Positions 2,667 through 40,000 are shown, counted from the stretch's first letter. The stretch: 64,000 nt of DNA from Catajapyx aquilonaris (GCA_000934665.2 JYFJ02000322.1:1-64000); one strand, 5' to 3'. Program-made: numbers and translations. Notes: generated by a model from the sequence alone, not told the origin.

Positions 2667-2880
2667 GGGATGTGGTGGAAAAACATGACAACCGTCATTT
2701 CTGTCATTTTTGACCTGAACACCTAGCAACTATGCCGTATAAAAAGACACGAAGAACAGTTTGGTATTGTCCAAGTTCATACGACAACACGGACTAGATC
2801 AAAACCCGATTGTGCAAACTTCAATTTGCTCTCCTGAAAAATTACACTTTTGAGGGTTGTCACGTTTTCCCACTGCACCC
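2667..2880. mobile_element. Possible old MITE (about 26-bp imperfect terminal inverted repeats)
   Basis: gggatgtggtggaaaaacatgacaacc versus ggttgtcacgttttcccactgcaccc. Confidence 0.35.
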
Positions 2881-18440: not shown

Positions 18441-18978
18441 TACTATAAGCACTATCACACTAAAATTTACAGCCCTCTTCCTGACCTTTTTCACAAAAAC
18501 TGCTAAAATTCTGCTCACATCTCGCGCAAAACTGCGGGGGAACTATCCTAGCAAAACAATGCAACGAACCACAGAGAGCCAGGATTAGACCCGAGGGCGG
18601 CCGCTTCATTTTGGAAGCAAAATTGGCTGCCGAGGTGCCATGGGACCTCAAAGTTCATGCAAAAATAATTTTGCCAGAAAATTGAATAGTTCGTTAGCTT
18701 ACACTTGACCAGCCTTGCGAAACCCGAACTATTTCTGCAAGAGTGGTATTTGCAAAAAAAAGCTGCATAATTTGCAGTATATGTTCGTGGTTAATAATGA
18801 ATTGATAATTAATTAAAATGAAAATATTGGGAGGAAAAAATTACATTTTATGTTTTTTTCCCCTATTTTGCAGTGTGTACGAGTGAAGTGTCCCCAGAAG
18901 TGAGACAGAGTGCAAGTCTCAAAGTGTTACAGACGTTACGACTTTCTCCACCAGTGCGGTCCATCTACCCCAGCCAAG

Positions 18979-19037
18979 ATTTCGTTCTCAAGCTTCAAGC
19001 AATCATTCACCTCCAATGTCAACTACCTGAGAAGAAG
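18979..19037 (+). CDS. Syn: Synapsin coding exon 1 (domain A start; exon probably begins at 18874)
   Basis: Reads (I/M)[18 protein letters not shown]+AG, then donor gtgagg at 19038. Strong acceptor tttttttcccctattttgcag ends at 18873. Confidence 0.88.
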
Positions 19038-22000
19038 GTGAGGTCCAGCTGCTATTGAGCGATAGTCGCCTTTACAAAAAAAGAAGGGGAAAAAAAGCGA
19101 ACGTAAATCAAGTTGACGTTTCCACTGATGCCGTCCGCAATTTCTGACGTAACTTGAAGACGCTGATAGAACGCTCTTTCCATTACTTATCGGTTCAGAC
19201 ATACCACATGTCACTCTGGTATGGTTCGAACCGAAAACCTGAACGTGTTTGTTATGAAAGTTTTTGGCTTATATGTCACGGATCACTTACATTCATTTTT
19301 GAGTTATATCATTGCAATGACATGTTCCGCCAACTGACTGTTGCCATGGTGAAGAAGGCTGTTAGATTATCCTTGTTTTTCCAACGTCGTTTGATTGCTG
19401 GCTCCAGAAGCACGGCCCAAGGCAGTTGTCGTGGAAACATCCCTCGTTCGTATATTGCTTTTTGAGTATTGAAGAATATAGGGTCAACAACAAGATGAAA
19501 ATTGCATGAAGGATGTCCAAGGCAACACCAAACACGAAATGATATAACAACGGTAAAAGTAATTGATCGAATTTTCGTCCCACTGCTAACTTAGCCATGG
19601 CCAACACTGGCACTGCTAAGTTAGCAGTAGCACCAATGTTGCTGAGACTATAGATCAGCGGAATAGCCTTTTAGCGACTCACAGCTGCAAAATATTGACT
19701 ATCACCCGATCCTTTTGGCTTTCCCCATAAAGAGTCTTGCAAGTCCATGTCAAGTGTGGTAAATATGGGGGGAATTTTGGCCACTCTTGAGCCAGTTTCC
19801 AGACCTTCGATCCATGGTGGCGCCCTGGTGTCGTAAGTTCAAGGAATAGCACAATTTCTTTTTTTTTTTCGTCTGTCAGATTCAGTTTGCTGCTTTCCTT
19901 CGGGTGCTGGAGCAAACATTTGGGGATTACTTCAAATCGGGTGTGGTGGGTGAGTGCTTTTTTCCATTAATGAATCCAGATGAAACGTGTTTGTCAATTT
20001 AAATTTGATCCTAAATTGCAAAATTTGAAAACACGTTTTGGCCGTGCTTATTGTGTTTTGCGATTGCACGAGGATTTGCGAGTTGAGTTGAAAACAGCCC
20101 ATGCGCTTGTCAGTGTCACGAGTTACCGGATATTGATGATCGATACCAAGGGTAGACTCATATAATTGGTTGTATTTTGTTGATGCCAGATATACGCTGC
20201 AGGTTTGGTCGCATTCATAACTGCGATACAAGCAGACAGGATCATGTTAATGCCAAAATATAGTTTGGGTCGTAAAGAGGATTAAGTAAAAACACCAGGA
20301 TTATTATCACTAGTAGCTGTTATTCTAAATACTTTTGATCTCCTTGATCTCTTACCATTTGATGACAGGGGTTTGAAAGCAGCAATCGTAAAAAAAAGCA
20401 AATTTTATATCGCAGGAGATTTGACCCATTCAAGCCTGCAAAGCGCCCGCATTATTGGCCATATATTAGTCTGGCACACAAAAAAAATCTAGTCCAGAAG
20501 CAATAAAAAGCCGGTTTGCGTTTTTCCTCGAGCTGGAGACCTCCCTTTGGGCTCACTTCCGCTTCATAGCATTCATTTAGAGCGTTTCAGTCGCACGCTG
20601 ATTCCCAGTAAATGCGGAAATGTCTGGAAATCCTATTACTCTCCAGGGACACCAGCGGGGGTCACCTTTCTGTCCTGCTGGCAGATGACATTTGCAGGTC
20701 GTCCCATTACGACCTGGGGGATTGACCATGTCTTTTTTTTCCAGGTTTTCATCGGGGGACTTGTCCTCCGAGTACGATGAGGAAGGTAAAGGCCCGGGTG
20801 GGCCGCAGGGTCCGCCCGGGGAAGGAGAAGAAGGTCCAGTGTCTAGGGGCCGTCCGCCCCCGAGCAGTATGGGCGGCGGGGGCATGGGTGGGGCCGGCCC
20901 GCAGCAGAACGACCTGAGCCTGAACCTGCGAGGGGGCAGTAAGACCACTAGTGCCCCTAGTTCTCCAGCCAAGACCAGAGAAAGCTTCCTCCAGCGTGTC
21001 CAGAGTCTCACTGGAGTGGCCAGGACAGAGGCTACTCAGCCTTCCAGACCTTCCTACAACAAGGATAGGTGCTACACCTTATTGGTCATCGATGACCAGA
21101 ACACAGACTGGTGAGTGTCCGTTCATTTTGTCATGTCCAGTGCGGTAGTACATATGTGTCTCATTACAGGTCCAAGTACTTTAGAGGCAAGCGACTTCCG
21201 GGCGATTATGACATTCGGGTAGAACAAGCCGAGTTCAGAGAACTAGGAATATCAGCTGGATGTGACGCTGGAACGCAGGTGTCCATGGCTGTCTTCCGCA
21301 ATGGTACCAAGGTGGTTAGGTAAGCAAACTTTCTGCAACCAATAATTCATCGCGTTATAATCGGCGTTAATTAGCGGACCGCACTTTCCGCCCTTTAGAA
21401 ATATTGCGCGTGTTAAATCCAACTTTTGGGTTCTCTCTTCCTTCTTAATCCAATTTGTAAACACAACTCGACTGCCATCCCGAAGCCTTTGAGTGCTTGT
21501 CGGTCTAATTAATCCTCGACATGCCTTGTCATTTGGCCTCACCCCCAGGCAACAATGTCTGGGCTTAAGCCAGGAGTGTGTACCAGGCCAGTGACAACCA
21601 AATTACTAGATTTTCCCCTGCACAGCCCTGTGAGCTTGGCTATAGTAGTATCGACTATGAACTAGGCGTATTTTTTGTTGTCTGCAACGCAATTTTGGAT
21701 CCTCCATTCAGAAGGCTGGACTAAAGTGGCAAGTGTAAGGTACGGCGTAGGACGTGGTATGTGTTCCGAAATTCCAGCTCCGGAGGAATTTCGTACTGGT
21801 ATGTGCCGAGTGGGGAATATAAATTCGGGCTCTAAGCGATCGTACAGTCGCAAAGAGCAGGGTTTGAACTGGGTTAAAAAATATTCGGAATTCCTGCTGG
21901 TGTAACGAGGTCAGACCTGTAACGAGTGGACTGTGTAATCAGATTATACCTAAGTTATAGGAATTAAAATGAAATGTTTTGATCAACTGACTGTATCATC

Positions 22001-25000
22001 GGAGTTACGGATCGTGATCATATAGGTTTTGGTTAGTTTCAAATTAATTTCCTGTAATAAACATGGGCACACGTGTAGGTTATATGCCCAATGGATCAAT
22101 AAACTCACCGTGTACAGGAAGCCCGTGACCAGGTGTGAGGGAAGCGGTGATTGCAAAAGCGGCCTTTTGTAATTGTGCAATATTTTGCGAGCACAAAGAG
22201 ATGATGTGGTTCCGGCTAACTTCATTCACAGTGTCAATGAAGAAGCCAACTATGCAACATACTCTCTCTCTGCGGTGTATAGTGAGGCTTGCTGCATGAT
22301 TCGCATGAATTGACATTTTAGTTAAATAGTTCATGAAGCTTTAATGTATTATTCACCAATTTAGCTGTCAATTTTTCATGTTTTTTTCTGAAAACTTTGT
22401 TTCCATCATTGGGCTACTATTGGCCGTTATTATTTTATTCACGTGTGACGTGATTACAAAAATTGACACTTTTTTTTGCAATTCCGCAATTACTCATGTC
22501 AGTGACGTTTGCCATCCCCATTAATGTGGGTGTGGGCACGTGCCAGCTTCTAATCTTCGTAAGAGATATAACTCTCTGAATCGACTGGAGTGGTGTTACC
22601 TCCTTTTCGAAACCCAAGCCGAGCGCCCCCCCTGAGCCCCGTGATATTCTGATAAACCCTAACAATGGCTGAAATATCTTCGCGTTGGAGCTTATCGGAG
22701 CTTCCAAAACATAAAGCATTTTCGAGTGGGGGGTGAACGTCGATGTCACCAGGAGAGGGAATCGCGGTCTCTTCATGAAGCAGTTAAACAGCCCAGGCAA
22801 AAGCGTGGGCGTCAACACGTATCCAAGGCAACAACAATCATTAAAGAGGTTCCAGAGCAGGCAAATCGAAGTGAGCTGCAAGGGAAGGGCTGGTCTTGAA
22901 AGGAGCTTAATCCGCCCTAGAGCAGCAGTCAAAATGAGCCTACGGCCGGAAAAGCCCACCCATCACTATGCTATTGGCGACTGGCACAACCATGTAAGTA
23001 CTTTTAGATCTTACTCTGGTCACACACCATAAGCGAGCTTTACAATGTAATAGTTGGAAACACTAGAATGTGTATTGTTCAGCCGATTCAACAATGTTAG
23101 GGCTTATTTTGTCAATATTGTACAGAATTGAGTGGCATTATAGCGGTTATTGTTGGATTATTGGAGTGTAAGCCCAGCTCGTGCGATGGGTAATTTGATG
23201 TGAGTATCAGTTTATCGACTGGTCTGCATTGTGTTGATGATACACTTGGTGTCTGGTTTTAACTGGAACGCACAGTGGACTAGAATACAGTAAAAATAGC
23301 TGCCCACGCAGGATAGAGAGGCCATGAAGCCAGGGCTGGGGGTGAGTTGTTAAAATTCCGATTTCCCTTTGGAGTAATGCGCAGTAAAACCGGGTTCGAA
23401 GGACAGTTCCATCAAGAGAGGAGGCTTTAACACTATTGCAAAGCGTGGCAGAGAACGTTGGATGCACACGATTTTGTCTATCACACGCTTTTGAATGGTA
23501 ATTGGATTTAATTTCAAATTAAATTAATGGCAGATTGAATGGTTGGATCGCCATCAGAGACGCTGGGAATTCGATTATTTAGCCTGAATCTTAATTCTAC
23601 ATTTTTTTTCAAATCCCGAACCTTGTCAGGTGTGGAGACTTGCGAACCAGTCCGAGGTGTCCCAGGACGACTCGATGCGTGTCCGTCACGATTCCCGTCA
23701 CGTCCGTAACGACACTCGCATCCAGACGGAATGGGACACGCACCGAAACGACTTGCGACTCAGGGAGAGGATCATCGAGATGGACAACTGGAGGATCGCC
23801 CTGGTCCGCACCCTGGACGAGACCCAGGAAGAGATAGACGCCATGGTGCAGGCCAAGAAGGACGTGGAGAACGCCCTGTTCGCCAAAAACCTGCCGTTGC
23901 AAGTGGCCGAGGAGTGCCTGACCATACGTGACCACAGGATGGGTCACGACCTGGCCAGGAACGGGGTGGACAAGGAGCTGAACAAAGAAGTGGCAGTGCT
24001 CCAGGAGATCCGGCACCAGCTCAAGACCAAGAGCGAGCAGGGATTCGACACTCTCAACCGCCTCCAGTCAGTCTTCCAGAAGCTCAGAGAAGACATCACG
24101 GACAAGACCTGCGCCATAGACATCGACTACTACTGCCTGGATCTGGACCCAACCAAGCCCAACATCAGCTACAAACCGGAGGCCACCAGGATACCCAAAG
24201 GTGCACATGAAAACAATATTTCTTTCTCCCGTGACCCCAAGAGCTATGCCGGCGGTTTCTGTCTCCATCTGTCCCACCTTTGTGTCTTCTTTGCTCTGGC
24301 TCCTTTCTAATAAACCTAATATTTCTACTGTAGTTGACCTAATGTCTTAACACACACATTTCCAAAAAAAGGTACCATCAGCATCGCGGCCTGGGAGGAG
24401 CACTCGAGGTACAACAAGCTGAGGGCAGACAACGAGAAAGACGCGTCTCGTCGCCTGAGAGAGGACATGGGTCTGACCATAAAGCAGACGGATTACGACA
24501 CGAAGGCCCAGCAGGAGGCGACGGACTTCGAGCTGAGGAAGCGTGTGCACGAGACTCAGAAGGCCATCAACGAGCTGGAGTGGCAGAAGTCTCAGCTGGA
24601 ACAGGAGATCGATCGCCTGGAAAAGGAGATATCGGCCATGGAGGAGGACTTCAGGTCCAGGTCCAAGACAGGCTCGCTGAGGGTGGCCCAGACGCGTCTG
24701 GAGACAAGGACGTACCGACCAGGGTTCGAGCTGGTGCGGGACGTGCCGCAGTACGGCCTGAACGCGGAGATACAGCAGATCGAGGAGACAATGAGGAGGC
24801 TGCAGGCACAGCTGGACCAGTCCAGGGAGCAGCTGAACGAGCTGAACCAGCAGCTGTACATCGTGAACGAGGATCTGAACAACAAGAAGGCCAGTCTAAC
24901 CCTGGAGCAGAGGTGCCAGGAGAGGAGGGCGGCGACGCGACCCAAGAAGGTGCAGGACAAGTACGACCCCGTGGATAGGAACATGGTCATGGTCGGGGTG

Positions 25001-28000
25001 ATGCCGCTACCGGACTTGAAGCCAGATGGTCACTGCCCCTCGAAGTACAACTACACATGAACATACTGATGGGGGATTTCGCATGGAGGAGGAATTAAAT
25101 TCGGCTTGTAGGAAGTAAAAAAAAAAAGTGTCAGACTAACTAAGACATAGTCAGGATTTGTTTGTCTGAAACTTTTTTTTTGGACGTAGGGAATTAAGGG
25201 AAAATTAAACAAGTGGATTTTTTACTCGATGTGCATCAGGTAATTGGGGAATTTGCAAATTTTTGATATTTTCACCTGCAATTTTACGTTTGTATTCATT
25301 TACCTTTGTATCTTAAATTGAGGGGATGCAAATAAATACATTGGGGTGAATATTCATGTCTTGTTACTTATTGCAGATATCTCCTTATTTTCCATTCCAT
25401 GCAGTGTCGTTTTTACCAGCCGAACAACGTTGTTAGGACGGTAATGAAACAACAGGTTGTCATGAAAAACCAGGGAATTATTGTGTTTGAAATGAAAGAA
25501 AATTGAATGCATAAATTAACTCCAATTTAGTGCACAGATTTGACTGGAGGCAGGATGTGTCTTCAGACCACGATTTGATTATTATTCTTTAAAAAAAATG
25601 AACGATATTATTTCAGGTCATTCCGGCCCGACTTCGTGCTCATACGACAAAACTTACGTGACGCCGGAGAAAATAACAAGAACATTCTTCTAGGATTCAA
25701 ATTCGGGGGCGTACCCAGCATCAATTCCCTCAACGCCATATACAACTTCCAGGTAAGAACTACAATAATTTACATCTTCCTTTTTGCATCCTAGAGCACG
25801 ATATAATGACGGAAAACATTTTTTTACCATTGTAAATTTTGCAGAAAATACAGCCACTTTTCCATCCAAATTATAATGCTAAATGTATTTAGAGACACGT
25901 GAAAAGTAGACTTCGGGTTTCGTGTACTTGACAAGAAGCAAACAGGAAATCCTTATTAACAATGGCTGTATGACCATAAAGTGGAAACAAAAAAATCCGG
26001 ATGTAACCCGTAACAAAATTACCTCTAACCTCATTTAGACAGTAAGATGGACAAATAAATTCAGTGCATGAATCTGGACTGTGCCTAACTAACTTACGAG
26101 CGAAAAATCCGGACTGGATACGAATTCAATAAAGGTAGTCCGATAATGCAATGAGTCACAAACGAAAATGTCCTTTCTCATCAATAGTTGATGAGAAAAA
26201 GGATTAGCGTAAACCATTAAATTAGAGAACAGATGTGATAGATTAGTCACGTAAGCATGATTAACGATGGTTCTGGCCAATGTTTTCCAATAAATTTCGA
26301 CCCATGCAGTTGGGCAGAAAAATTTGTACATTTTAGAGTGCTTTGGCCTTTCGTCTCACTGCAATGCATGTCTGATGTATTTTTAGGACAAGCCATGGGT
26401 GTTTGCGCATTTACTTCAGCTTCAGAGAAGACTGGGCAAGGATCAGTTTCCACTTATCGACCAGACCTACTATCCCAACCATCGGGAAATGGTAAGTGCC
26501 ACTCACCTCGCAAAGTGTGTGCCCTACATCGTGCTTCATGTACTCCCCACACTTACGTTAGACCAAACCTTTTCATTGTATTTTTAGTACCGTTCAGCAA
26601 TGGCGTACTTTCACTCTTAAGGCTCACCCTGAAGTGCAGGGTATAAAGTTATTTAACTGACCAAGAGCAAATTTCTTTTTTTCACAAACGAGTCGCGTCT
26701 CACTCCTTAGCATGTGTATTATAAAGCATGTTTTGCTCGTATCGTGAGGATCGTGCATATTTATTCAGAGTAGTTACATATATATGATCGTCGGCACATA
26801 CAAAATATGAAATAAGTATTTCACATAAAGTGCTGAACATTTCACCATATCTGATATTAATTTTTCTGTAGAAATTTCAATATGAAGGGTATAACAAGCT
26901 AGAGCTGATAAACCGAATGTGGATTATTCCCAAAGTAATAAAAATGTTACTTACATGTTCGAATCAGTGAGTAGTCCAAAGTGCCAGAGCTGCTTTTGCT
27001 TGTTATACTACGGCCATTATTTGATTATAATATGTAGCCTACACATATCAGTGTGTTTAGTTTGAAAACCTCCCTTTGAGCATTTTTGTGTGCAGTTATT
27101 TTTTTTATATCGTAATGCCTTTAGAGATTCACTCACGAGAAACGAGATCGAGCCAATTCCATTAGGCACTGGAAATTGATATCCAGATCCAGCACCAGCA
27201 TCAAAGAATGCCAGGCCTGGAAAAGTAGGGCACAGCCGTAAGAGAAAATAATAGGTGCATGAATATTGAACCAGCAATACCAATGGATCCGTGTGATTGA
27301 AGATCACTTCGGATGTGAAACGAGGCCTATTCAGAAGAACTGAATAGATAAATGCATTTTGATAAGAGGAAGAAAAATACGAGATGCAAAAACTTGCATA
27401 TAAACTAATATATTAGTGCTGTATACGTATTGATTGGTAGGACTGAAAATAAAACTTGTAAGGAAATCACTACCATACGACACGAAAAAAAAAATGTTAG
27501 AGGAAATGCTCTAGGAAAAATTAGAGTTTTGTTCCTTATTTTAGTGATGGCAGAACTGGCCTTAAGTGAAAATAAATTCCAACAATATTGTGGAGATTCA
27601 CATTTTATTAGCTCAACATCATTGTTAGCATTGTACAACAATGATCAATATAATATATAGAAACTAATCTGTATGTGGAATAAAATTGTGTCAGAAGAAT
27701 AACTTTGCTTGGTCTATACCTAACTAATGAACACAGGTTTTTGTCAAGTGAAGTATATATACATACAGTACAAGTTCATAATGCCAGGTACTCTACCGAC
27801 TTTTTCCAATCAAGATGTCCATAAATGCAAACTGACTTTGACACACGTGCATCCAAAATTTGCAACATGTTATTCACCTGTCAGTCGACCTATCTTGTCC
27901 CAAAGTTTCACAGTCACATCCAAGGAGCTTGGGAAGGATTTAACCGCATTAAAACGATTCTGCATGTCTTATGGCGATGTTGAGAGCACGTTTCTCAAAG

Positions 28001-31000
28001 ACGAAGCGGTGCAGTCGCCCGAGAGTAATATATCGACAACTTAACGAAGGAAAATTGGGGGGCTCATTTCTAATCTTTTGAGTCAATCCGAAGTTGGAGC
28101 ACCCAGTGGAAATAAAGCTGTGGAGACATGCGCATAATTATAGCTTTTCGTGTCAAAATATCACTGTTTCATTGTTTAATTATACGAGAAGGCGCCTTTT
28201 ACGTTTAATCAGATATATCGTTTCGAATGCAAATATGGACAGCCCGCAAGATATTTTTTTGTAGTAATCACGCGAGTCTATAATACAGAATACATACCAA
28301 AATTACTTATTTTATCAAACTACCCGCATAATAAGAGTACTGTAATTGGGGCTATTGATGTATATTGCTACAATCTAGACTGAAATTTCTGTAAAATAAG
28401 AGTAGACCTATTCAATGCGCATTAGTGTGATATTATTTCAATGAAGCATAAGGATATTGCCGTGCTGAGAATATACCAATAAGTAATATGTTGTGCAAAA
28501 AAATAACTTAGCGCGTAACTGCTACAATGTGCCATCTGTAGTGGTATAGGCTATTTACTAAAACATCACAAATTAAGTGTAATAATTTTTTTGCAGTATT
28601 TAATTTTTATTCCAGATTACTCCAATCAGATCTTTATTTCCTTCATCCCAACACAAAAATAATATTGACACGGTTTTTCGTGAGACTGCATTGATTTAAA
28701 TAACCTAAAAGTCAGCAGGCTACTACGAGATTTTAAATATTGACATACTGTATATAAGGCAATGTTTTTTTTAATTATTTATTTTGTATACTGATACCAA
28801 GACTTTGGTCCGTGCACTTTGTAGCAGACAGGAAATACCCCACTCTATAGCAGCCACACAATGAGGCATCAACAATGGCTGACATTTTTTTTTCTTCTAT
28901 AAAAATTGGATAGTTGAGAGTGTGGGGTTGGTGATGCGGATTTTCTTCAAGGCTCGTTGGCGATTCTTTCTTCCTTGGCCAGTCGACGCATCTTCATGCA
29001 CTGTCGGTACCGCCGGGAGTCGGCCCATTGGCACTTCCCGTCGTCGTGTCTGACGCAGAAGCTGTGCTGCCTCTGGCAGTCCATTTGGCTGCCTCCCCAG
29101 GCCGTCTCCCAGGGGCACATGTGAGGCGACACGGGGCATTGTTGCCACCACGAGCACTGCAGGATCTACAATCCAAAGAGACAATAATGTTACACATAAA
29201 CTCACTGCAGAGCAATGCGGAATGGGCATAAAAATCCCTGCTGGAGTAAGATGGATGGTGCCCGAAGCATTACCCACAGGGATAGAAAATGAGCTAAACG
29301 TTTGATGTCTTGCAACCGGAGGCGTAGCCTACCGCTAATTAGTAGGAAACGGCATTGCAGTGAGGGATGTGATGGGAAATAATGGTCTCTGAAGACTCAT
29401 TGTGTCCTTCATGTGGTGTCTGACAGATTCGAGCTGCGATGCAGGTGGAACAATACGCGAACTTTAATTATGGGCCAAATTATAATGGATCTATAGGGAT
29501 TGGTATGCTGACTTTCGTGGTTTCATCTTTGTGTAACATATCTCTTGATATCGAACTGAAATATTTGTCAAAAAATGCGATATAATGCTGCTCTAAAATA
29601 ACTTAGAAATGGCGCGAAACAAATTATTACATTTTCCGTGTTCAGGCGTCTATTCAGTTTCTGTTTAAGCTCACATTGATACCTTTTTTTCGTACAGGAA
29701 ACACAGTACAGTATCTCTAGATAGGGCGTGGGTGATGCCAAATGAATTGAATCTCTACAATCTCTTTGAAGGGGGTCAGAAATAAAATCATGAGAGTGGA
29801 ACTCTATAGGAGAAATGAAAATACTGCGTGGGTAGTTTCGCACTTTTTATATATCCCGTTTGTGATTAGAAAGAGACCGCTTTTAGTGTGCGGATAGGTC
29901 GAGTGCTTTCATCCCTCAAAGCTTGGCAAACAATAACTCAGATTGCTCAGTCCTAGTCTCTCGGGAAAGGATTTTCAGAGAAGAAAAAAAATTGGCATTT
30001 CATCTCTATAGACATTTCGCGTAAAGTACAGTACTACATGCTGACTGAAAATTAAAGCTGTGTAGTTGGGTAAGATGCTACGCATAACCGGGTTAAATAG
30101 GTGTAGAAATGTTTATTTTCCTCTCGCTATTTTGGGTTTGGCACAGCCAGGGTCGCGTAATTACCGGCGTTTTTAACAGCGCGATAATTACAGCTGCACG
30201 TGAGCCAAAACCAAGACCGGCATGGCCCATAATTATACATTACCTCCTTGTCGTGATGTAGCCTCCAAGTTGGGCAAAAGCACACAGCACACCGCTCTCG
30301 AAAGTGTACATTTTACGAACCATTAGCAAACGCACTCTGTCACATCCGAGTTCACAGTAACATTCCCGCACGTCCGGGTGCGACGAAGAGTGAAACAGTG
30401 CGTGGTTCCGGAAACAACAAAGTTTTACAACCGTACAGTATGTACTAAACTTTTTTGACATGACTTTTTAAACCCACGAATGCATACCTTGCACTTGCAT
30501 CCTTGTCTGTAGAGCAGGCGGAATCCCTTCCTCTCTTTGATGCTGAGCTCGTTCCATTGTCGATGGTACCCGCAGAGGGACATCCATGGCTTACCCCTGA
30601 CCAGCGATCCGGCCAGCACGTACCGACCACCTTTCTCCAGAAACACACCGCAGAGAGATTCGTGTGGGGCTGTGTACAGACGCCCTGCCTTTAGGGCCAT
30701 ACTTGCCTTTAAGCTCACCTGCATTAGAAAGAAGAAAAAAGAAGGGATAAGACAAATGGAGGTTTGAAGTCACGTGAGAGTTTGGATTGAATCAATTAGT
30801 TGCGCAGGAAGGCGCTTGGGTCATTTGCATAATCAAACGAGGATATGATGGATCGGCCTTGCGATTCACAAGTGCTCTGAAGAGTTTGGCCTCTGTTGCT
30901 TCGTAGTTTTAAAATAGGCCTTGGCTCGCCTACTAAGGAGGCTAATAGCAAATGTTTTGATTATGCCCACAGTCTGCTTCCACATCAAGTGCTATTGACC

Positions 31001-34000
31001 TACCTACATGTCTGCTGTTGGGCCAACTATACACATGGAAAATCAACCAATGCAAGTGACGATCAGAATATTTCCACATGATTTACACTGTCGGTAAACA
31101 ATGGCCGTGTTTGCGGACAGCAGAATCATAGTGCAGGGCAACTGCTGGCAACAATTCGTCAAAATGAAATATTCAACCCGCAGTCAATTACTCTAGTCCG
31201 CTGTCACGTCGGTCATGTGTTTTCTGTCTGGGCGGAACACTGGTGAAGTATCCAGGCCAAGTTTGGCATAATTGCAAAATTTCTCATGCCCTAATTGACA
31301 TGTTTCTCTCTGCAGTAATAAGCAGTAACTGAAATCAGAGCCGCAACTTTTGGACCACCCTGCACGATTCGAGTGTCATTTAGGATATCGCACGTCGACA
31401 GCCTGCACTTTTTGCACGATCATGAAGCATCGTAACCGCTCTCGAAGCCCCTGGGAAATGGTGGTCTGGCGCAGTGTTTAAAAAAAAAAAGCGGGCGGGT
31501 TCGAAAATATACCGTCGGTTGAAGAATATAAGGAGCGCGCGTGAGAAGGGTCTTCAGTACGGCATTAATCATACGGATGTCTAATTCCGCCTCCTTAGCT
31601 TCCAGTGTTGACTCCAACCCGATGCCGAAAGCGTCCGTGTGTCTGGCCTGACTTATGAACAGTCAGGCCGTCATAAATTTGCAGGATTGAAATAATTTTT
31701 CAGGCATGCTCTCTGGTATAGTCAACACCATTTTTGAAATATATATAAAAAAGAGGCGACGCGACGGTTCTCCAGTATACTCACTTTGAACTCCTTCTTT
31801 ATCCTGATCTTGAAGAAAGCGTTGTCTCCGTACTTGACAGCCTTTTGTACCGTTGCTAGCACCACTGAAATTGCAATAGGCTCTATTAGTAGTCGGGTCG
31901 CATTTGGGGTGGGTTGGAATGATGGGAACATATTATATTAGAGGCGTCATTTTCCAAGAGGATATTTGTATTCTGAGCCTGCACCAAGATCACACCTAGC
32001 AGCAATCCCCGTCCATCAATCCTCTGACGCAAAATGGTGTTGGCATGTCGTGTTAACGCCCCCTGTTTACTATGGCACTGGGTGTCCCTTTAGGGTAGTT
32101 AGGAGAATTTTGCGGGTTCTTAATTTTTTAACTGGAATCCTACAAGCCGGCGACGGAAACTATGAATATTGAGCAGTATAGCACAATTTTGGAAAATATA
32201 GTGCAAATTTGTATAAAAGGATTCCTAGAGCTATACGGCCTACTTTAACAAGTAAGTGTACAATGGATTAAAATTGCATACTATCTATACTCTATAGCAT
32301 TGACTATTTCAAAGGCTAGTACAGAGAGTATTTCGATCTTTGTCTGATTCTGTGTACTGACTGGTTTGATCCTGTGCATACAGTATAAGTCACGTAGAGG
32401 CGTGCGAAATGCAACTGGCTGTCAGATTAAGTCGAACTGAAAAATTGTAATAAGATCTTTAATATGCACGTGAATGTTCCTGGTCTTGACTTTTCTTTTC
32501 GCCTGCGGTTATATGCTCGTCCAGTGGGATTAAATCGAGCAATTAATCAAGCGAAAAACGAGATTTTTAACAGAGCGATTTTTAAATGCGACGTGATGTC
32601 AGATTCACACAGGAAGCAGAGTGTAATCAATTTTATAATCACCATAAAATATTGCCATTTTTGCTAATTTTGGTATTCGCTATTAGCGAGCTGCGAATGA
32701 ATACACTGCACATAATTAAAGCGAGCACTTATTTATAATGGGCAGCGCACTAGCCAGGTAATGAAATATTAAATGGAGAGAACTAACAGCCTTCTTTTCA
32801 CAGTGCATAATAAAATGGGTCGCATTTTTAGCCGAACTCTCCCGTATAAATGCGTGTGCCATCGCGTGAGGTCAGAATTCCCAAAGAGATGTGGCGTGTT
32901 TCGAAGCCATATCCGTGCACTTTACAACACTCCCTTCGTACTTACACCTTATACAATGAGGGTGCACGCACATGCACGCACAATACGCACACACCTTGTG
33001 GGAGGTCATCACAACACACTTATGCATGAAGGTCTTTGCCCGAAGCCATTATATCAAAAGCCGCGCCTTATTTCGCACAAAAGAAAAAAAAAAGTCAGGC
33101 GTATGTCATGTTGCAGCATTAGTATTTTGGCGGGTAATTTGGAAAAAGTCGTTGGGGTGTCAGGATTTTTCGGATAAGAGGTGAGGAGAGAGTAGCCCTC
33201 CTTTTTTTATTGTTGGGCCCAGGAATGTTATTCGCTATGGGCGACAAGGATTTGTGTTTTTTTATAGTGTGGACTGGTTCGCAAATGTTTGCGCGGCAGT
33301 GCCAATTAGCGGGTCGTTAAATTCGGGTTATGAGGATCAAATTGCTTGCGGAGGTGCGGGGTTGAAAAAAAAGGGGACAATAATGTATAGGCTACTGTGA
33401 TGGTTCAAGGCGAATTGTAATTTGCTCAAAAGCCTGTGTACAGTGGGTGAAACTATTAATCAATGGCATGCAGATCTTGCACTGTGACTGTATTACGTAC
33501 GTACACTGCATTATTGTCATATCAATGGGTGTAAGCTGCTGGAATTTCTATTGAAGGTCGTAGGGTCAACAGAATTTGAACTTTACTTGGCACTGAACGA
33601 GTGCAATAATGACGATGGATTATTACAGTTCGGGAGACGTCTGGGGAATTATCTTGAGGCAAGCCTAGACGTGACCTGAAATTCCCAAGTTTTCTTTAGG
33701 TTCAGCATACTGTAGAAGGAACGACAGAAGCGTCTAGGTTCATGTTACGTAACAGGAGTCGAATGGCTTTTTCTTCACAATTTCGTGCACCGGTGAGCAC
33801 TTGAAGAATTCTGAAGATGGATCGGGTCCGGTTGCAGCCGTACTTAAGACGTTGCTGAATTGCAGGAAATGTACGAACGAGAACGTATATATGGACGGAA
33901 GTTCAAAGGAAACTGATACCCTATCCAAATCCTTAGCCAACGATAAAGTACACCTGCACTGTTTCTGCGCCTCATTATCTTAATGATGTGTAAAGTAGAG

Positions 34001-37000
34001 CTGTGTATGGGTCCGCATTAATATCCCGCAGTCGTGTTACGTTAGTTGAAAAGGTTCTGGCTTTGCACTCTGCCCACCGACATGGCCAGCACGCATTAGT
34101 ATGTCTTCTCATGAGCCAGGATTGATTGCCAAGGCAGCCAACCGCACCGAAAAAGCGTCGGACCATCCGTCAATATTTGAGGTTGGCATGGCCTGCATTA
34201 ACGCGACGTTGTTCTGTCCCCCGGGATGCTGTGTTGGAAAAGAACTGCGACTGTGGTTGGCTGGGCTTCTGGTGATGCTGAGCTGATGATGGTCATTTCC
34301 TCTGGAGGGGTCCATTCAAGGCCCCCCACAGACTACTCTTCCTTCCTGCCACAATTTTCCAATCAGGCTTCGACACTCAACTACCTTAACCTAACATGGT
34401 AACGTCGCTGTTGCTGCCTGACCCAGCACATTTTTTTTGCGACGATGCGTGAACCCCATAAAGCACACGCTTTTGTGCACCTGATATTGTTGTACAGCCA
34501 TGCAATTATGCAGAAAACAGAAGACCCTCTTTTTTAATAGCGGATGTATCACAGGTTCAATTAGCTTGCTTCAATTGATCATCCTTTGTGACGGAACATT
34601 AATGCAGCCGATGCGTGACGAAGAGCACTGTAACTCTATTACTGCTCTATGCTAATTTTTAGAGAGGGATACTTACTAGATAACAATAGGTGCATGGACC
34701 CGTAAAGTTGCACACACGTAGATTAGAATCAGAAGTGCCTTCAGCAGACCCCCATCTCTTGTCATGTCAAGGGGGGGTCTTTTGCAAAAGCCAGTTTCTG
34801 TTTTAGGATCCGGAGTATCTGATGGCGCCATCTTCACGCAACAGTGGCCTTACAAAAACCGCATATCTCCATCCAATCTGGCCCACTTTAAATTTCTCCT
34901 TTGATCCTGGCCAGGGTAACTTGTTGCTTCCGCATGCAAACTGACGCGGTTTGAGGTTTTTTTAAAGTGTTGATGCACGGGATCCATTAACCCTATAAAC
35001 TCGTGTGTAATCCAGGTGAACTATATCATTTGACTCAATTAGTACGCCGACTATTGGCTGGGTACACACGGGCGTCGTCGTCTGTTCTTGTCGTTGTCCG
35101 ATGTACTCGACATATTCAATTTACACACTAGTTTGTGACTATATATTTTTTTTCTGACTTTTTTACGAGCTATGCAAATTGACCTTATACGACTGAGGCT
35201 CATTCCAAATGCGAAGGAGCCCCTCAGCAATTCTCATTTAAGACTGACTGATAATTTACATACTAATGTGAGTGGAAGTACTACATGCAACTTAATTATA
35301 CTAAGTTGTTAGTGTGTTGGAGGCAAATCTGACATAACAAGGTAGTCATTTGTTGATAAGGACCTGCTGTGCCTGTGGGCCCACTATAATATTTTGAACT
35401 CCCTGGAGAGAATTTAAGTTCATATCATGCAGCCTTATGACTTTAACATTCCAAACCGTTGAAACCGTACTCATTGTTTAAGTAAGGCGGTCGGCTTACT
35501 TTAGACGTTGCATCACTTCAGGGCGTTAATTTTTCTCGTGACCTTACCTCGACAATTACGTAATCACAAAAATCTTCAAGGGGACACCCACGTGACATAG
35601 TCCAGTATTATAAATTATAGAACGTAGTAAACCCCTACCCACATATACGGTGCAGTTCAAACATACCATTCAACTTCACAGTGTAGACACTTTTGATCAT
35701 GCGATAAATATACTAATATAGAGAGCTACATTGTGATGTACAGGAGTAAAAAAGGGTTTTACCGAAGTCTGCCTTGCAGAAGTGCTCTTGCGGGTGTTGC
35801 ATTGTACAGGAACAGGCCGCTGCCAACCTTAAGGTCAGTCCTAGGCCCAGGAGAACTGACAGTAACCACTGCCACTGACGCATCGCAGTTGATCTGTCAA
35901 AGAAAAAATAATAATATAAATACCTTGTCAAGCTAAATTGCTCAATTTTTCACTCAGGGCGTGTCCTAAAATAACACTGGATTAATGGCAAAATTGTGCA
36001 CCTTCAGTTCCAGGAATTTCAGCAATGTCCTTCTAACGTTTCCTTTTTTTGTGTGTGTCCATACATTACCGAGTTGACCACCTCCAGTACGTGCCCTGAC
36101 TCTGAAAGTGCCTCCGACAATCGCGATATATAGGCCATCCCCGTAGCACTTGGTGACATCTCAGGCCCCCTTAAATTCCCAGGCCAGAGGCGAACAAAAA
36201 GGACTGGGAGATAGGAGAGTACTGTTACCTACTCTACGTAATTGAGCCAAATCCCATCGCAATGTTCTAGGAGCTTGTGTTTCCAAACGGGACTGACATT
36301 AGGAGGTTGTACAGTATACCAGAAGTAATACTTAAACGGAATTTGCTCTTCCAACAGTTTCGTTTTGGTTTTAGTGCCCAGGAACAGTAACCTGGTCATG
36401 TCAAAGTGCCCTTCGAAAAATATTTGGGAACGTTTGGCTTTATGACCCAAGTGGCTCTCTCTTTTTTTAAAGAGATCGCTTTTACCACTTTCCTGAAGCG
36501 TAAGTGCGCAGTAATATTTAAGATGTACTTATTTTTAGAGTGAGGGAATAGCGGGATGGACATGCGGAAATGTGCTAAATGGCTGACAGCCAATCTGTTC
36601 GGGTCAGGAGAAATTCCATTGAATTCAATGACAGTTAGTGCAATGGCCACTTTATATTTTAAAAAATAAAATATTTCGCCACCAGCTAACGACAAAATCT
36701 TGTTACATCTCCCTAATTCTTCAAACAGGAAAAGTATGTAGTACTAAGCACTTTTATGGCCCATTATAATTCCACAGTTCTAAACAAACAGTAGCTGCTT
36801 GTTCATGTAACGCACGTACTGTAGGCCAGTGTTATTGTACTGCGACTCACATTTTAAAAAAAAAACTTGCGAGACAAGTAAGCTATTATTTCACGTGACA
36901 GTGTTGTTCTTATCTTTCCTTAAAGCCTACAAAGAAAAACCTGTATTGCTATTGCTCGTGCTGCCATAAATTCTGACCTGATCATCTATACAATGCCGGG

Positions 37001-40000
37001 TTTTTAGTGAGCATAATAAATTGGGTTAACATAAACCAGGAGGCGTTTCACGGAATGTCAAATAACATGTTCCATAATATTATCTTTGGGTGACAAAAAT
37101 TATTTAAAATTTAATACACTTTAATCTGCTGCAATGTAACAGATAAATCAAACTTACATATTTGAGGCATGAGTAATGGAATGAATTAATCCACATTTCT
37201 CGACAACTTTGTGCAGACTTGTCGTGGTTAGGAAAACTTGTCTCACTTATCAAACAGTCTGTGTGTATACCTACCTCTATAGGAAGGAAACAGCTGCTGT
37301 GTCAGGCAGGTTTTGACAAATTATTGTTCCAAACTTGCTCCGGTGATAATCGTTGTTCGCTGAAGGTGGAGTAAAAATGCGTGAAAGCCTTTCGCACAAA
37401 TCCCTTTTGGAGCAATGAGGCCGTTGAGCTTCCGGACTTGCTAAGCCGGTATTCAAATCACTTTAGGTGTGGCGATATGCATCATGACTAACTTCCTTTG
37501 TGGTAATACACTATTGACAAATAATGTCTACCTACACCTGATTTTTTAAACACCTACTTGATACGTTACATAAATCTTTGCAGAAGGTCATTAGTCATAA
37601 AAGTACGTATAAGCCCATTTTCTTAAACGGATAGAGATGACTACTTAGCAACTTGCAATCAATAGGGGTTAAATTTTTTTTAAAGGAATCGTCGTAGCAA
37701 TTCAACGCATAGTTACTATTTTATGCACGAAACCTAACACCATTTAGCATGACAGGCTCGAAAAATATATTCCAACGTACACACAGCCACTCTGGAGCAT
37801 TCTTTAGAGACTCTCTCTCCTGTCAACCCCTACCCACTGTGCCTTATTGAAAGAAACCGGTTGTTGGAGGAAAAAAAATATCTCCGCTGCCATATAAATT
37901 GAGTGACAGTAATTGAAAGCGGATCTACACATAATGATTTTGGAGGGAGCCCCCCCTCAAGTTTTTCTTTGCCTTTGACTAGGAACACCTTTCTCCCACC
38001 AATATAGTTAAAAAAAGAGGATTGAAAAGAATGTTGAATGAAAGCGCACAAATTGCGTGTGGCACAACTTAATAAAATGCGTAATAATTGAATTAGCAGA
38101 GAGAGGCCAGGACCTTGCGAGAAAGTCATAAATCATTGAATGTCAGTCGTAAGAAAAAATGCGTAACTGATGCCAAGGACCAATAGACAGGGTGTAAATG
38201 ACTCCTCTGGGGGATGACACAAAGGATGATCACATACGCAATTATCACCTTTCCTTTTGGTGGTTCTTCCGCGTTCCATTTTCTGCTTCGGAGGGATCTA
38301 GTTATCTCGCTCATTTATTTTAAGTGCCCTTCAACTCAAAATTGTTGCGACAGTCAAGTGGGCTACCGTCCAAACCACCAAAGAGACCGTCGGAGCCATT
38401 TCATTGAGCAATCAAGAGTGCGGGTTGTAAAGTGGTTTTGCGGAATGTGTTTGGTTCGAAGGGTACTTCACACGCACACGCATTTTTTGCAAATCCAGAG
38501 AACGGAATTTGCAGAGATGTGCTGTAATTTGCTCAATTTGCAGGCGGTGTTAAGATGACATTAAATATTAAAGGGAATATTTTAAAAAATAGAGCCTAAA
38601 TTTTGTACTTTATAGAGAAAAGGTGCATGGGGTCGTTTGCATTTATTATTGCAAAAAAAACGAGATGACAGACCAAAATTCTCAGTTGTTATGTGTTATT
38701 GTTGAGGTAGATTCCTGTTTTTATGGTTATTATCTTACTTCTTCAGTAAACTTTCCTTTCCTGTATGTTACCACACAATCTAGAGTATTTTTGATATTAT
38801 TTTTTTTCTTCCACACCGTTTGTTGTCGAATAGAGGAATATTATATGTCGTGCCCACATAGTTTTTTTTAAAAATCAGGCAATTTGGTATGCAAAGTGAA
38901 ACGCAGCCAGATAGTAAAATTCATCGTGGTACCGGCGTATATACGGTACATATGATGCACAGCTGATGAAACTTCGGTAAAACCCTTAACTTGAAGTCAA
39001 AGAACTGATAACAAGGAACAGAATGCAGTGAAAGCAAAGATGAAGGTAATTTTAAACCTTCCTCTCCAAGTGAGGATTATTATCGAAGTTTCACAGCATC
39101 GTTTTATTCTAATGAGAAGAAAGCAATTTACATAACAGGCGCAAAATTTCATTATCAGTTTGGACCACTGGGGGTATACCTGTAATTGCTGGGGATAGAA
39201 CCAAACAATATTTACAACCACTTAACAATGTAAAGCAAATTTAATTGGTGAGCTTAGCTTCAAATATTGGCCTTTTATCATGAAAATAATAGCCACCATT
39301 TTCATAACTTGGATTTGAAAAGCCTTTGCATTTGTCGCCTCTGTAACATTCATATTGTATAAAATTAATTGTCAAAAATGTACATTCTACTTATTCTATT
39401 CATTGTTGCAATGAAATGCAAGACAATTTTGCTTTTTGACTGCGTTTTGCTCTGTGATTGTTGAATTAGCCTGATATATATATTTTTACTATCTGGCTGC
39501 GACATATACACACGTTGGAATTGCATCATTCCATGTGTCCTCTTGCAGCTTCCACATTCATTGGAAGACTATGAACTGAACCAGTTCTTACAAGTCTTAA
39601 AACAGCGTCAGGTAAGACTTCTAGGCTCATTCTTTCTAGAATCGGTTTAGAAATTGAAGGTGAATTTTATTTATTATTGGGCACTAGGCCTAAAAATGTC
39701 TTAATTAGGGGGCAATTTGAAAATTTATTCAGAAATATCCTGCCCGGCGATTATGATTATAACCGCGAGTGGGAATATTTCAGGCAACTTTTGCTTTCAT
39801 AACTTGATTACAGTTTACTTTTGAATTAGTATAAACATTTCTAGCGTACTTGTTTCAATTGGCATTTTATATTGCAGCAAAAAACTTGAGCCTATAACTG
39901 TTGGCCTACCTTAACAGTATACAGTAAAATCCAGCTATTAATGTACTGTACCTAGCTGTTCTTTTATTTAGCCCGCATTCTTTTGTGAAAGTTAAATTTG

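What the first reader, a model, noticed from the sequence alone, without database searches (positions are those of the whole stretch)
21320..25616. Complete tektin-2 gene nested on the SAME strand inside a synapsin intron, with its own ciliary-type promoter
Seen: an intact 3-exon, 439-codon tektin gene lies wholly between synapsin exons 3 and 4 on the same strand. It has an X-box-like site about 100 bp upstream and an AATAAA 280 bp before the next synapsin exon. Its splice sites are phase 0 and phase 1, while the host intron is phase 2, so any accidental splicing between the two genes shifts the frame. Known: nested genes are mostly antisense; the familiar synapsin passenger is Timp, in a different intron; tektins are motile-axoneme (sperm) proteins; RFX factors drive ciliary genes. 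Inference: neuronal synapsin transcripts must ignore two donors, two acceptors and a poly(A) site, which suggests mutually exclusive neuron/testis use or an intronic polyadenylation switch. I do not know of a described Syn-tektin nesting.
Basis: partly seen in the sequence, partly recalled or inferred. Interest (0 to 1): 0.8.

Follow-up and report, generated by a model that had tools for sequence, protein, structure and literature searches.

The report
Tektin-2 gene nested inside synapsin intron
An intact sperm-tail/cilium gene (tektin-2) sits, in the same direction, inside an intron of the nerve-terminal gene synapsin in an unidentified arthropod; this is real and apparently lineage-specific, but it fits the usual pattern of nested genes, and its regulation could not be tested.

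Summary
A 3-exon, 439-codon tektin gene (22934-25060, + strand) lies wholly inside a 4297-nt, phase-2 intron (21320-25616) of a + strand synapsin gene. Both halves of the protein score best against solved Tektin-2 chains. In a tree of 87 tektins it falls in the tektin-2 half, next to insect tektin-2. The classic antisense TIMP passenger is also present, two introns downstream.

The nest is not general. No tektin was found in any of 32 metagenomic synapsin loci. Of these, 25 cover both flanking exons. Sixteen have no intron there, eight have a 133-510 nt intron at the same site, and one has a doubtful 58-nt gap. One locus keeps the antisense TIMP.

The regulatory reading is not supported. The X-box-like site and the AATAAA occur at chance frequency. 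The phase mismatch is real but expected 4 times in 9. Strict neuron/testis exclusivity is doubtful, because the Drosophila tektin-2 orthologue is expressed in chordotonal neurons and motoneurons. No RNA data could be obtained. In Drosophila, brain-expressed host genes and testis-expressed same-strand guests are the typical pattern.

Verdict: a new member of a known kind, of modest interest.

The parts
22934..22993 (+). Tektin-2 exon 1 (coding part): ATG plus 20 codons, phase-0 donor GTAAGT
   Evidence: It aligns to the N-termini of tektin-2 proteins (KP..., DWH).
23630..24200 (+). Tektin-2 exon 2, 571 nt, phase-1 donor GTGCAC
   Evidence: Pfam PF03148 E 5e-52, profile 6-194. Best solved-structure matches are Tektin-2, 132-146 bits, against 92 bits or less for other tektins.
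24372..25060 (+). Tektin-2 exon 3 (coding part) with stop TGA at 25058-25060
   Evidence: Pfam PF03148 E 3.6e-54, profile 197-381. Tektin-2 chains score 138-152 bits against 101 bits or less for other tektins. The [12 protein letters not shown] motif is seen.
22819..22832 (+). X-box-like site GTATCCAAGGCAAC, 101 nt before the tektin ATG. One canonical half-site (GTTGCC on the minus strand) and one imperfect half-site.
   Evidence: Its frequency in the window is no higher than in shuffled sequence, so it is a candidate only.
25331..25336 (+). AATAAA, the only + strand copy between the tektin stop and the next synapsin exon. It is followed by a GT-rich stretch. ATTAAA variants lie at 25094 and 25204.
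   Evidence: About 0.46 are expected by chance, and its use is untested.
21320..25616 (+). Host intron of synapsin, 4297 nt, phase 2, GTAAGC...CAG
   Evidence: Eight metagenomic loci have an intron at the same site and phase, 133-510 nt long.
21170..21319 (+). Synapsin exon upstream of the host intron ([16 protein letters not shown]...)
   Evidence: PF02078 5.2e-16. 76-84% identical to three named insect synapsins.
25617..25752 (+). Synapsin exon downstream of the host intron ([12 protein letters not shown]...)
   Evidence: PF02078 3.1e-11; tblastn.
18973..51260 (+). Extent of the synapsin coding exons seen in the window. They lie at about 18973-19037, 20745-21110, 21170-21319, 25617-25752, about 26387-26500, about 49290-49508, 49583-49870 and 51156-51260.
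   Evidence: tblastn with P0033, P0040 and P0062. PF02750 Synapsin_C matches 49221-49484 (8.3e-31) and 49562-49879 (2e-39).
30428..35949 (-). Antisense TIMP gene in the 26.5-49.2 kb synapsin intron. At least two exons were detected, in ORFs 35716-35949 and 30428-30769.
   Evidence: PF00965 at 4.2e-16 (profile 60-137) and 4.2e-4 (profile 2-19, below the curated cut-off).

Best explanation
This is the tektin-2 orthologue of an arthropod, probably a pancrustacean outside the sampled insects. It is a microtubule-inner filament protein of motile-type axonemes. At some point in this lineage the gene came to lie, introns included, inside an older and elsewhere short intron of the synapsin C-domain region, on the same strand.

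Shown:
- The gene is intact and compositionally distinct from the intron around it.
- It is a tektin-2 orthologue.
- It is wholly intronic.
- Other taxa have the same synapsin intron, or none, without a tektin in it.

Inferred:
- It works as an independent transcription unit. Its own promoter would lie in the 1.6 kb between the synapsin donor and its ATG, and its own poly(A) site about 270 nt after its stop.
- It is active in cells that build motile-type axonemes (spermatids, and probably chordotonal-type sensory neurons).
- In most neurons the whole unit is transcribed as part of the synapsin pre-mRNA and removed with the 4.3-kb intron.
- Any synapsin-tektin mis-splice is out of frame and would be cleared by nonsense-mediated decay.

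The arrangement is an instance of the common 'brain-expressed host, testis-biased same-strand guest' class of nested genes.
For: - Gene integrity: 1320-nt CDS without an internal stop, and GT-AG introns.
- Family: the full Tektin domain is covered, profile 6-381 of 383.
- Alignment: end-to-end with tektin-2 proteins at 32-42% identity over 9 comparisons, with the conserved RTYRPxxELxRD block.
- Composition: GC3 is 0.83 in the CDS against GC 0.41 in its own introns and 0.34-0.44 in the flanking intron DNA, as expected of a gene kept under selection and not of a decaying copy.
- Orthology, by solved structures: the five best chains for each half are Tektin-2 or its sea-urchin counterpart, with a gap of at least 37 bits to the next paralogue.
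- Orthology, by tree: the 87-row tree splits into two halves, each with SH-aLRT 98. The window protein sits with all 5 rows that bear a species name. It is sister to P0147 (99) and then to a 13-row clade holding Osmia, Phymastichus, Ladona and Diaphorina tektin-2 (93). Members of the other half match Tektin-1, -3 and -4 best.
- Intron-resident position.
- Lineage-specific: 0 tektin hits (7 tektin queries, E <= 1e-3) in 32 synapsin loci totalling 199,074 nt. Of the 25 loci that cover both flanking exons, 16 have no intron at the site, 8 have a GT-AG intron of 133-510 nt at the same site and phase, and 1 has a doubtful 58-nt gap. By 90% nucleotide identity the loci form about 12 groups.
- Positive control: the search does find an antisense TIMP in L017.
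- No repeats flank the insert.
- Literature: tektin-2 is single-copy in nearly all arthropods surveyed (PMC6357514, passages). For Drosophila nested genes, 71% lie on the opposite strand, hosts are brain-enriched, and same-strand guests are 58% testis-highest (PMC3814207, passages).
Against: - There is no expression evidence of any kind. No RNA run was listed, so the transcription start, the poly(A) site, tissue specificity and the absence of chimeric transcripts are all untested.
- The promoter and terminator motifs are at chance level.
- An acceptor-like AG just before the ATG means an upstream non-coding exon, and hence a more distant promoter, cannot be excluded.
- Same-strand nested genes with introns are the minority in Drosophila, where 72.5% are single-exon.
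- The metagenomic loci are from unnamed taxa. None is a close relative (80% identity or less in the exon), so how far the nest extends within the window's own clade is unknown.
- Whether this is the only tektin-2 copy in the genome could not be checked, because no genome is held.
Confidence: 0.72

Rival explanations
1. Coupled use. The tektin-2 unit is active in some of the same neurons as synapsin (ciliated mechanosensory neurons, or particular motoneuron classes). In those cells, its promoter, splice sites or poly(A) site change what the synapsin gene produces. This could be premature polyadenylation giving a truncated synapsin, or transcriptional interference lowering synapsin.
For: - The two genes share a strand, and a plausible poly(A) signal lies 280 nt before the next synapsin exon.
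- The Drosophila TEKT2 orthologue CG3085 is expressed in chordotonal neurons (PMC6367277, passages).
- CG3085 is also reported as specific to Is motoneurons, with an active-zone phenotype on knock-down (bioRxiv 10.1101/2023.01.17.524447, passages).
- Mammalian cases link nested-gene activity to premature host polyadenylation (PMC11694760, passages).
Against: - There are no RNA data for this organism.
- The nest is absent from all other loci examined, so any coupling is not an old, conserved feature.
- In Drosophila, nested and host genes are on average less correlated in expression than neighbouring genes (PMC3814207 abstract).
Confidence: 0.15
2. An unexpressed or decaying duplicate: an unprocessed pseudogene copy of a tektin-2 gene that functions elsewhere in the genome.
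For: - Nested genes often arise by duplication into introns (PMC3814207).
- The genome could not be searched for a second copy.
Against: - The 439-codon frame is intact, both introns are canonical, and the family motifs are conserved.
- GC3 is 0.83 against intron GC of 0.41.
- Tektin-2 is single-copy in nearly all arthropods surveyed (PMC6357514).
Confidence: 0.05
3. Assembly artefact: the tektin segment was joined into the synapsin intron by mis-assembly.
For: - The host intron is 8 to 30 times longer than the same intron in other taxa.
- No reads could be laid on the region.
Against: - There are no Ns between 16968 and 64000.
- No repeats lie at the borders of the tektin segment that could mislead an assembler.
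- The intron ends have normal splice signals.
Confidence: 0.03
4. The tektin exons are alternative 3' exons of synapsin, with no promoter of their own, giving a chimeric or bicistronic transcript.
For: Same strand; an AG with a modest pyrimidine tract lies just upstream of the tektin ATG.
Against: - Every synapsin-to-tektin join is out of frame, with early stops.
- The tektin would be a far-downstream second reading frame, which is not normally translated in animals.
- The protein begins with the N-terminus typical of free-standing tektin-2 proteins.
Confidence: 0.05

Closest known systems
Synapsin-TIMP nested gene pair (Pohar et al. 1999, seen only as a reference entry; Candiani et al. 2010, PMC2825198, passages read)
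   Same: It has the same host gene, with a complete foreign gene living inside a synapsin intron. The TIMP nest itself is present in this window and in locus L017.
   Different: TIMP is antisense, sits two introns further downstream, and is reported as conserved from sea anemone to human. The tektin is on the sense strand, sits in another intron, and was absent from all 25 other loci that cover the site.
Same-strand nested genes of Drosophila melanogaster (Lee and Chang 2013, PMC3814207, passages read)
   Same: The host is a neuronal gene and the guest comes from a family with testis-dominated expression, which is the statistically typical pairing. Selection against mis-splicing is the proposed constraint.
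   Different: 72.5% of Drosophila same-strand guests have a single exon, and nested genes are enriched for young duplicates. This guest has two introns and belongs to an ancient, normally single-copy gene family.
Drosophila CG3085, the TEKT2 orthologue (zur Lage et al. 2019, PMC6367277; bioRxiv 10.1101/2023.01.17.524447)
   Same: Same orthology class. The window protein is sister to the insect tektin-2 clade.
   Different: I have no tool result on where CG3085 lies in the fly genome. The synapsin locus figure legend of PMC2825198 names only TIMP as a guest. Expression of the window gene is unknown.
Mammalian host/nested pairs with premature host polyadenylation (PMC11694760, passages read)
   Same: An internal transcription unit with its own poly(A) signal inside a host intron could alter the host's isoforms.
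   Different: Those cases have transcript evidence, and several depend on imprinting. There is no transcript evidence here.

Membership tests
Tektin family (Pfam PF03148) | Full-length Tektin domain above the curated cut-off | tested here: met
   Exon 2 scores 177.4 bits and exon 3 scores 184.4 bits (cut-off 34.3). Together they cover profile positions 6-381 of 383.
Tektin family (Pfam PF03148) | Conserved nonapeptide-type signature RPxxELxRD (motif recalled from memory, not from a call) | tested here: met
   RPGFELVRD aligns with RPNVELCRD and RPGFELCRD of the homologues.
Tektin-2 orthology class | Groups with tektin-2 and not with tektin-1, -3/5 or -4 | tested here: met
   By solved structures, Tektin-2 chains score 132-152 bits against 101 bits or less for the others, in each half. 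In the tree of 87 rows, the protein falls in the half (SH-aLRT 98) that holds all named tektin-2 rows. Members of the other half match Tektin-1, -3 and -4 best. This was a quick search with the LG+G4 model, SH-aLRT support only, and no bootstrap.
Synapsin (host gene) | Synapsin N-terminal (PF02078) and ATP-grasp C (PF02750) domains in collinear exons | tested here: met
   tblastn with named synapsins gives 64-72% identity summed over the exons.
Nested (intron-resident) gene, same strand | The whole coding region lies inside one host intron on the host's strand, with no exon overlap | tested here: met
   CDS 22934-25060 lies inside intron 21320-25616. The extent of the UTRs is unknown.
Nested (intron-resident) gene, same strand | Independent transcript with its own start and poly(A) site | not testable with these tools
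   No RNA run was listed, and no genome or annotation is held.
RFX (X-box) regulated ciliary gene | An X-box near the start that is more than chance, or is conserved in orthologous promoters | tested here: inconclusive
   The site fits GTHNYYNNRRNAAC (7 found against 6.9 expected). It fits GYTRYYNNRRHRAC only with 1 mismatch (65 found against 60.4 expected). Conservation could not be tested for lack of related promoters. PMC2375033 states that a lone X-box is not predictive.

The most novel reading that the evidence does not exclude
In this lineage the single tektin-2 gene has moved into synapsin. Tektin-2 is also used in neurons: in chordotonal cilia, and in flies in phasic motoneuron terminals, where it shapes active zones. 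The two presynaptic or neuronal genes would then be transcribed from one strand in the same cells. Firing of the tektin unit, or use of its poly(A) site, would act as a neuron-class-specific switch that truncates or dampens synapsin.
Probability: 0.1. Interest if true: 0.6.

Novelty: new member of a known kind. Interest (0 to 1): 0.33.

Why it matters
Synapsin is the textbook host of a conserved nested gene (TIMP). A second guest is therefore of some note, especially one that is sense-strand, contains introns, and belongs to an ancient single-copy family. It gives a natural test case for how a neuron reads through two foreign donors, two acceptors and a poly(A) signal. It also bears on whether selection against mis-splicing limits same-strand nests. 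It would matter more if tektin-2 and synapsin are co-expressed in ciliated sensory neurons or motoneurons, as the fly data hint. As it stands, this is one more nested pair of the usual brain-host/testis-guest type, found in one unidentified arthropod, with no expression data.

Tried and rejected
- RNA evidence. The look-up of sequencing runs (kind rna) listed no RNA holder for 20700-25800. Read laying therefore could not be used. This is no evidence either way.
- Whole-genome search for tektin paralogues. No genome is held for this window.
I replaced it with ORF-wise scans in three sets. The sets were the exon pieces; 150 of the 153 minus-strand ORFs of at least 40 aa in 26.5-49.3 kb; and 142 of the 163 remaining ORFs of at least 75 aa. 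The 21 I left out are overlapping frames inside the tektin and synapsin exons. Only tektin, synapsin and TIMP were found. Shorter exons and plus-strand ORFs under 75 aa in the large intron were not scanned.
- Rfam on the whole window found 0 families at gathering score.
- Repeats in 20000-27000. There are no flanking direct or inverted repeats that would mark a transposon-borne insertion. I found only an 18-nt two-copy match and a 25-nt hairpin in the tektin 3' region.
- Earlier notes of this scan held nothing on this genome or on similar sequence. A word search gave only unrelated findings.
- A variable-gap X-box pattern was rejected by the tool's syntax rule and I did not pursue it.
- Core-promoter motifs (Inr, DPE) upstream of the tektin ATG were looked at by eye only. 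An Inr-like TCATT lies near 22838-22842, with no convincing DPE. I make no claim from this.
- Naming the source organism. The best tektin hit is 49% identical over the exon, and 44% over the full length to the unnamed P0147. The best synapsins are 64-72% identical and are spread over thrips, stick insect, mayflies, damselfly and lobster. The lineage stays unresolved beyond 'arthropod, probably pancrustacean'.
- Pseudogene, chimeric-exon and mis-assembly readings were considered and given low weight (see the rivals).


Full report
**What is there.** The window is eukaryotic, and no genome is held for it. On the + strand, a synapsin gene runs from about 18.97 kb to 51.26 kb. tblastn with three named insect synapsins (P0033, P0040, P0062) places exons at about 18973-19037, 20745-21110, 21170-21319, 25617-25752, about 26387-26500, about 49290-49508, 49583-49870 and 51156-51260. 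Pfam confirms the Synapsin N domain on 21171-21317 (5.2e-16, profile 19-67) and on 25618-25752 (3.1e-11, profile 69-103). It confirms Synapsin_C on 49221-49484 and 49562-49879. The intron between 21319 and 25617 is 4297 nt, GT-AG, phase 2.

**The guest gene.** Inside that intron, on the same strand, lies a three-exon gene: 22934-22993, 23630-24200 and 24372-25060. The joined CDS is 1320 nt, or 439 codons and a stop, with no internal stop. The intron phases are 0 and 1. Pfam Tektin (PF03148) matches exon 2 at 5e-52 (profile 6-194) and exon 3 at 3.6e-54 (profile 197-381 of 383), so the domain runs on across the second intron. The 20 residues of exon 1 align to the N-termini of tektin-2 proteins. 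The whole protein aligns end to end at 32-42% identity with nine homologues and keeps the RTYRPxxELxRD block. Third-position GC is 0.83, against 0.41 in its own introns, 0.34-0.44 in the flanking intron DNA, and 0.65 in the sampled synapsin exons. This is the composition of a gene under selection, not of a decaying copy.

**Which tektin.** Against all solved structures, the five best chains for each half are Tektin-2 of mouse, cattle and human, one unnamed mammalian-length chain, and the 430-residue sea-urchin tektin. They score 132-152 bits. The next paralogues reach 101 bits or less. I then took the 79 near-full-length proteins (380-520 aa) among the best 150 of an exhaustive search (657 hits at E <= 0.001). 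To these I added five rows that bear a species name, two unnamed proteins and the window protein, 87 rows in all. The tree was built with IQ-TREE (quick search, LG+G4, SH-aLRT support only). It splits into two halves, each supported at 98.

The window protein lies in the 45-row half with frog, Osmia and Phymastichus tektin-2, the Capitella tektin and a spider 'tektin-B1'. Its sister is the unnamed P0147 (99), which itself matches Tektin-2 best by more than 110 bits. The pair is sister (93) to a 13-row clade holding Osmia, Phymastichus, Ladona and Diaphorina proteins. From the other half, P0209 matches Tektin-1 best, P0172 matches Tektin-4, and P0187 matches Tektin-3. P0201 is ambiguous. The tektin-2 assignment is therefore supported. 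The tektin family survey reports tektin-2 as single-copy in nearly all arthropods, and ecdysozoan tektin-2 as fast-evolving (PMC6357514, passages). That fits the 32-42% identities.

**Surroundings.** The classic synapsin passenger is also here. On the minus strand of the 26.5-49.2 kb intron, ORF 30428-30769 matches TIMP (PF00965, 4.2e-16, profile 60-137). ORF 35716-35949 matches the TIMP N-terminus weakly (4.2e-4, below the cut-off). The synapsin-TIMP nest is described as antisense and conserved from Nematostella to human, nematodes excepted (PMC2825198, passages). So this synapsin carries two guests: an antisense TIMP, and two introns upstream of it, a sense tektin-2. No other Pfam family was found among the ORFs scanned. 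No Rfam family was found. No repeats flank the tektin segment.

**Is the nest general?** One scan of metagenome contigs with the 49-residue synapsin exon returned 32 loci totalling 199,074 nt. tblastn with seven tektin queries, the window protein among them, found no tektin in any of them at E <= 1e-3. Twenty-five loci cover both flanking exons:
- Sixteen have no intron at this site. At least four of these look like intron-free transcripts.
- Eight (L009, L011, L012, L014, L016, L017, L021, L023) have a GT-AG intron at the same site and phase, 133-510 nt long. That is too short to hold a 2.1-kb gene.
- One (L028, only 37-39% identical) has a doubtful 58-nt gap.
- The other seven loci are uninformative.

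By 90% nucleotide identity in the exon, the loci form about 12 groups, so these are not 25 independent taxa. As a positive control, the window's TIMP exon finds an antisense TIMP in L017, downstream of the same synapsin exons. The simplest reading is that the intron is old, the TIMP nest is old, and the tektin entered, or was kept, only in the window's lineage. None of the loci is a close relative (80% or less in the exon), so the depth of the nest within that lineage is unknown.

**The regulatory claims.**
- The X-box-like site GTATCCAAGGCAAC (22819-22832) has one canonical half-site and one imperfect one. It fits a relaxed nematode-style pattern that occurs 7 times in the window against 6.9 expected.
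- It fits the restricted Drosophila consensus only with one mismatch, a level reached 65 times against 60.4 expected. That is roughly one per kilobase, so a hit within 200 nt of any ATG is unremarkable.
- The Drosophila study itself says that one X-box upstream of an ATG is not predictive without conservation (PMC2375033, passages).
- AATAAA at 25331 is the only + strand copy in the 556 nt after the stop, but 0.46 are expected by chance. Two ATTAAA variants are also present.
- The phases (0 and 1 against 2) do make every mis-join out of frame, with premature stops. Two introns both differing from the host phase is expected in 44% of cases.

These features are compatible with an independent ciliary-type unit, but they do not show one. 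No RNA run could be listed.

**How it most likely works.** I take it as an independent tektin-2 transcription unit that is spliced out with the host intron in ordinary neurons. The anatomy is shown; the expression logic is inferred. The pattern is ordinary for nested genes. In Drosophila, about 10% of genes are nested and 71% of nested genes lie on the opposite strand. Host genes are enriched for highest expression in brain (29%), and same-strand guests for testis (58%) (PMC3814207, passages). Two things are less ordinary. The guest keeps two introns, whereas 72.5% of fly same-strand guests have none. It is also an ancient single-copy gene, not a young duplicate.

The fly TEKT2 orthologue CG3085 is expressed in chordotonal neurons as well as testis (PMC6367277, passages and table rows). 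A preprint also reports it as specific to Is motoneurons, with an active-zone defect on knock-down (bioRxiv 10.1101/2023.01.17.524447, passages). If the same holds here, both genes would be transcribed from one strand in the same cells. That is the basis of my most novel reading. It has no direct support.

**Novelty.** I found no description of a synapsin-tektin nest. One search found 0 papers holding synapsin + tektin + nested. PMC6357514 does not mention synapsin, synteny or nested. The passages of PMC2825198 that I read name only TIMP. Supplements were not read. Genome-browser annotations, which are the place where such a nest would be recorded, could not be consulted. I class the finding as a new member of a known kind, of modest interest.

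Noticed in passing
window 30428-30769 (-) and 35716-35949 (-): An antisense TIMP gene lies in the 22.7-kb synapsin intron, which is the classic conserved Syn-TIMP nest. Only two exons were detected. The parts matching profile 20-59 and 138-183 were not located.
   Followed up: partly
window 19425-19438 and 19340-19353: GTTGTCGTGGAAAC is a perfect match to the restricted Drosophila X-box consensus. A one-mismatch match, GTTGCCATGGTGAA, lies 85 nt upstream of it. Both are in the synapsin intron between the A-domain exon and the next exon, 3.5 kb before the tektin ATG. This may be chance, since there are two perfect matches in the whole window.
   Followed up: no
window 20728-20745: An in-frame ATG ([12 protein letters not shown]...) lies 17 nt before the acceptor of the synapsin exon at 20745, reading through the pyrimidine tract. 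It could be an alternative start for a synapsin isoform lacking the first A-domain residues, or it could be coincidence.
   Followed up: no
window 18904-19037: The synapsin A-domain exon (…[21 protein letters not shown]) has no in-frame ATG. The start-codon exon must therefore lie further upstream and was not found, so the exon numbering is uncertain.
   Followed up: partly
window 25119-25181: A 25-nt inverted repeat (88% complementary, 13-nt loop, A-run and T-run arms) lies about 60 nt after the tektin stop codon, inside the presumed 3' UTR.
   Followed up: no
window 24201-24371: The second tektin intron has weak signals: donor GTGCAC, and an A-rich acceptor region (…TTTCCAAAAAAAG, 45% pyrimidine). 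The host intron's own acceptor region is only 40% pyrimidine. Whether weak guest sites reduce cross-splicing is speculation.
   Followed up: no
L017 6726-7684 (-) with synapsin exons at 2641-3876 (+): Another, unnamed taxon has the same synapsin intron positions and an antisense TIMP after the same exon. Its intron at the tektin host site is only 359 nt.
   Followed up: yes
L001-L008, L010, L019, L020, L027: In several genomic-looking loci, the synapsin intron that hosts the tektin here is absent altogether. This intron has therefore been lost or gained repeatedly among the sampled taxa.
   Followed up: partly
window 262 and 16964-16967: These are the only Ns in the window: one single N and one 4-N gap. 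Neither is near the finding.
   Followed up: no
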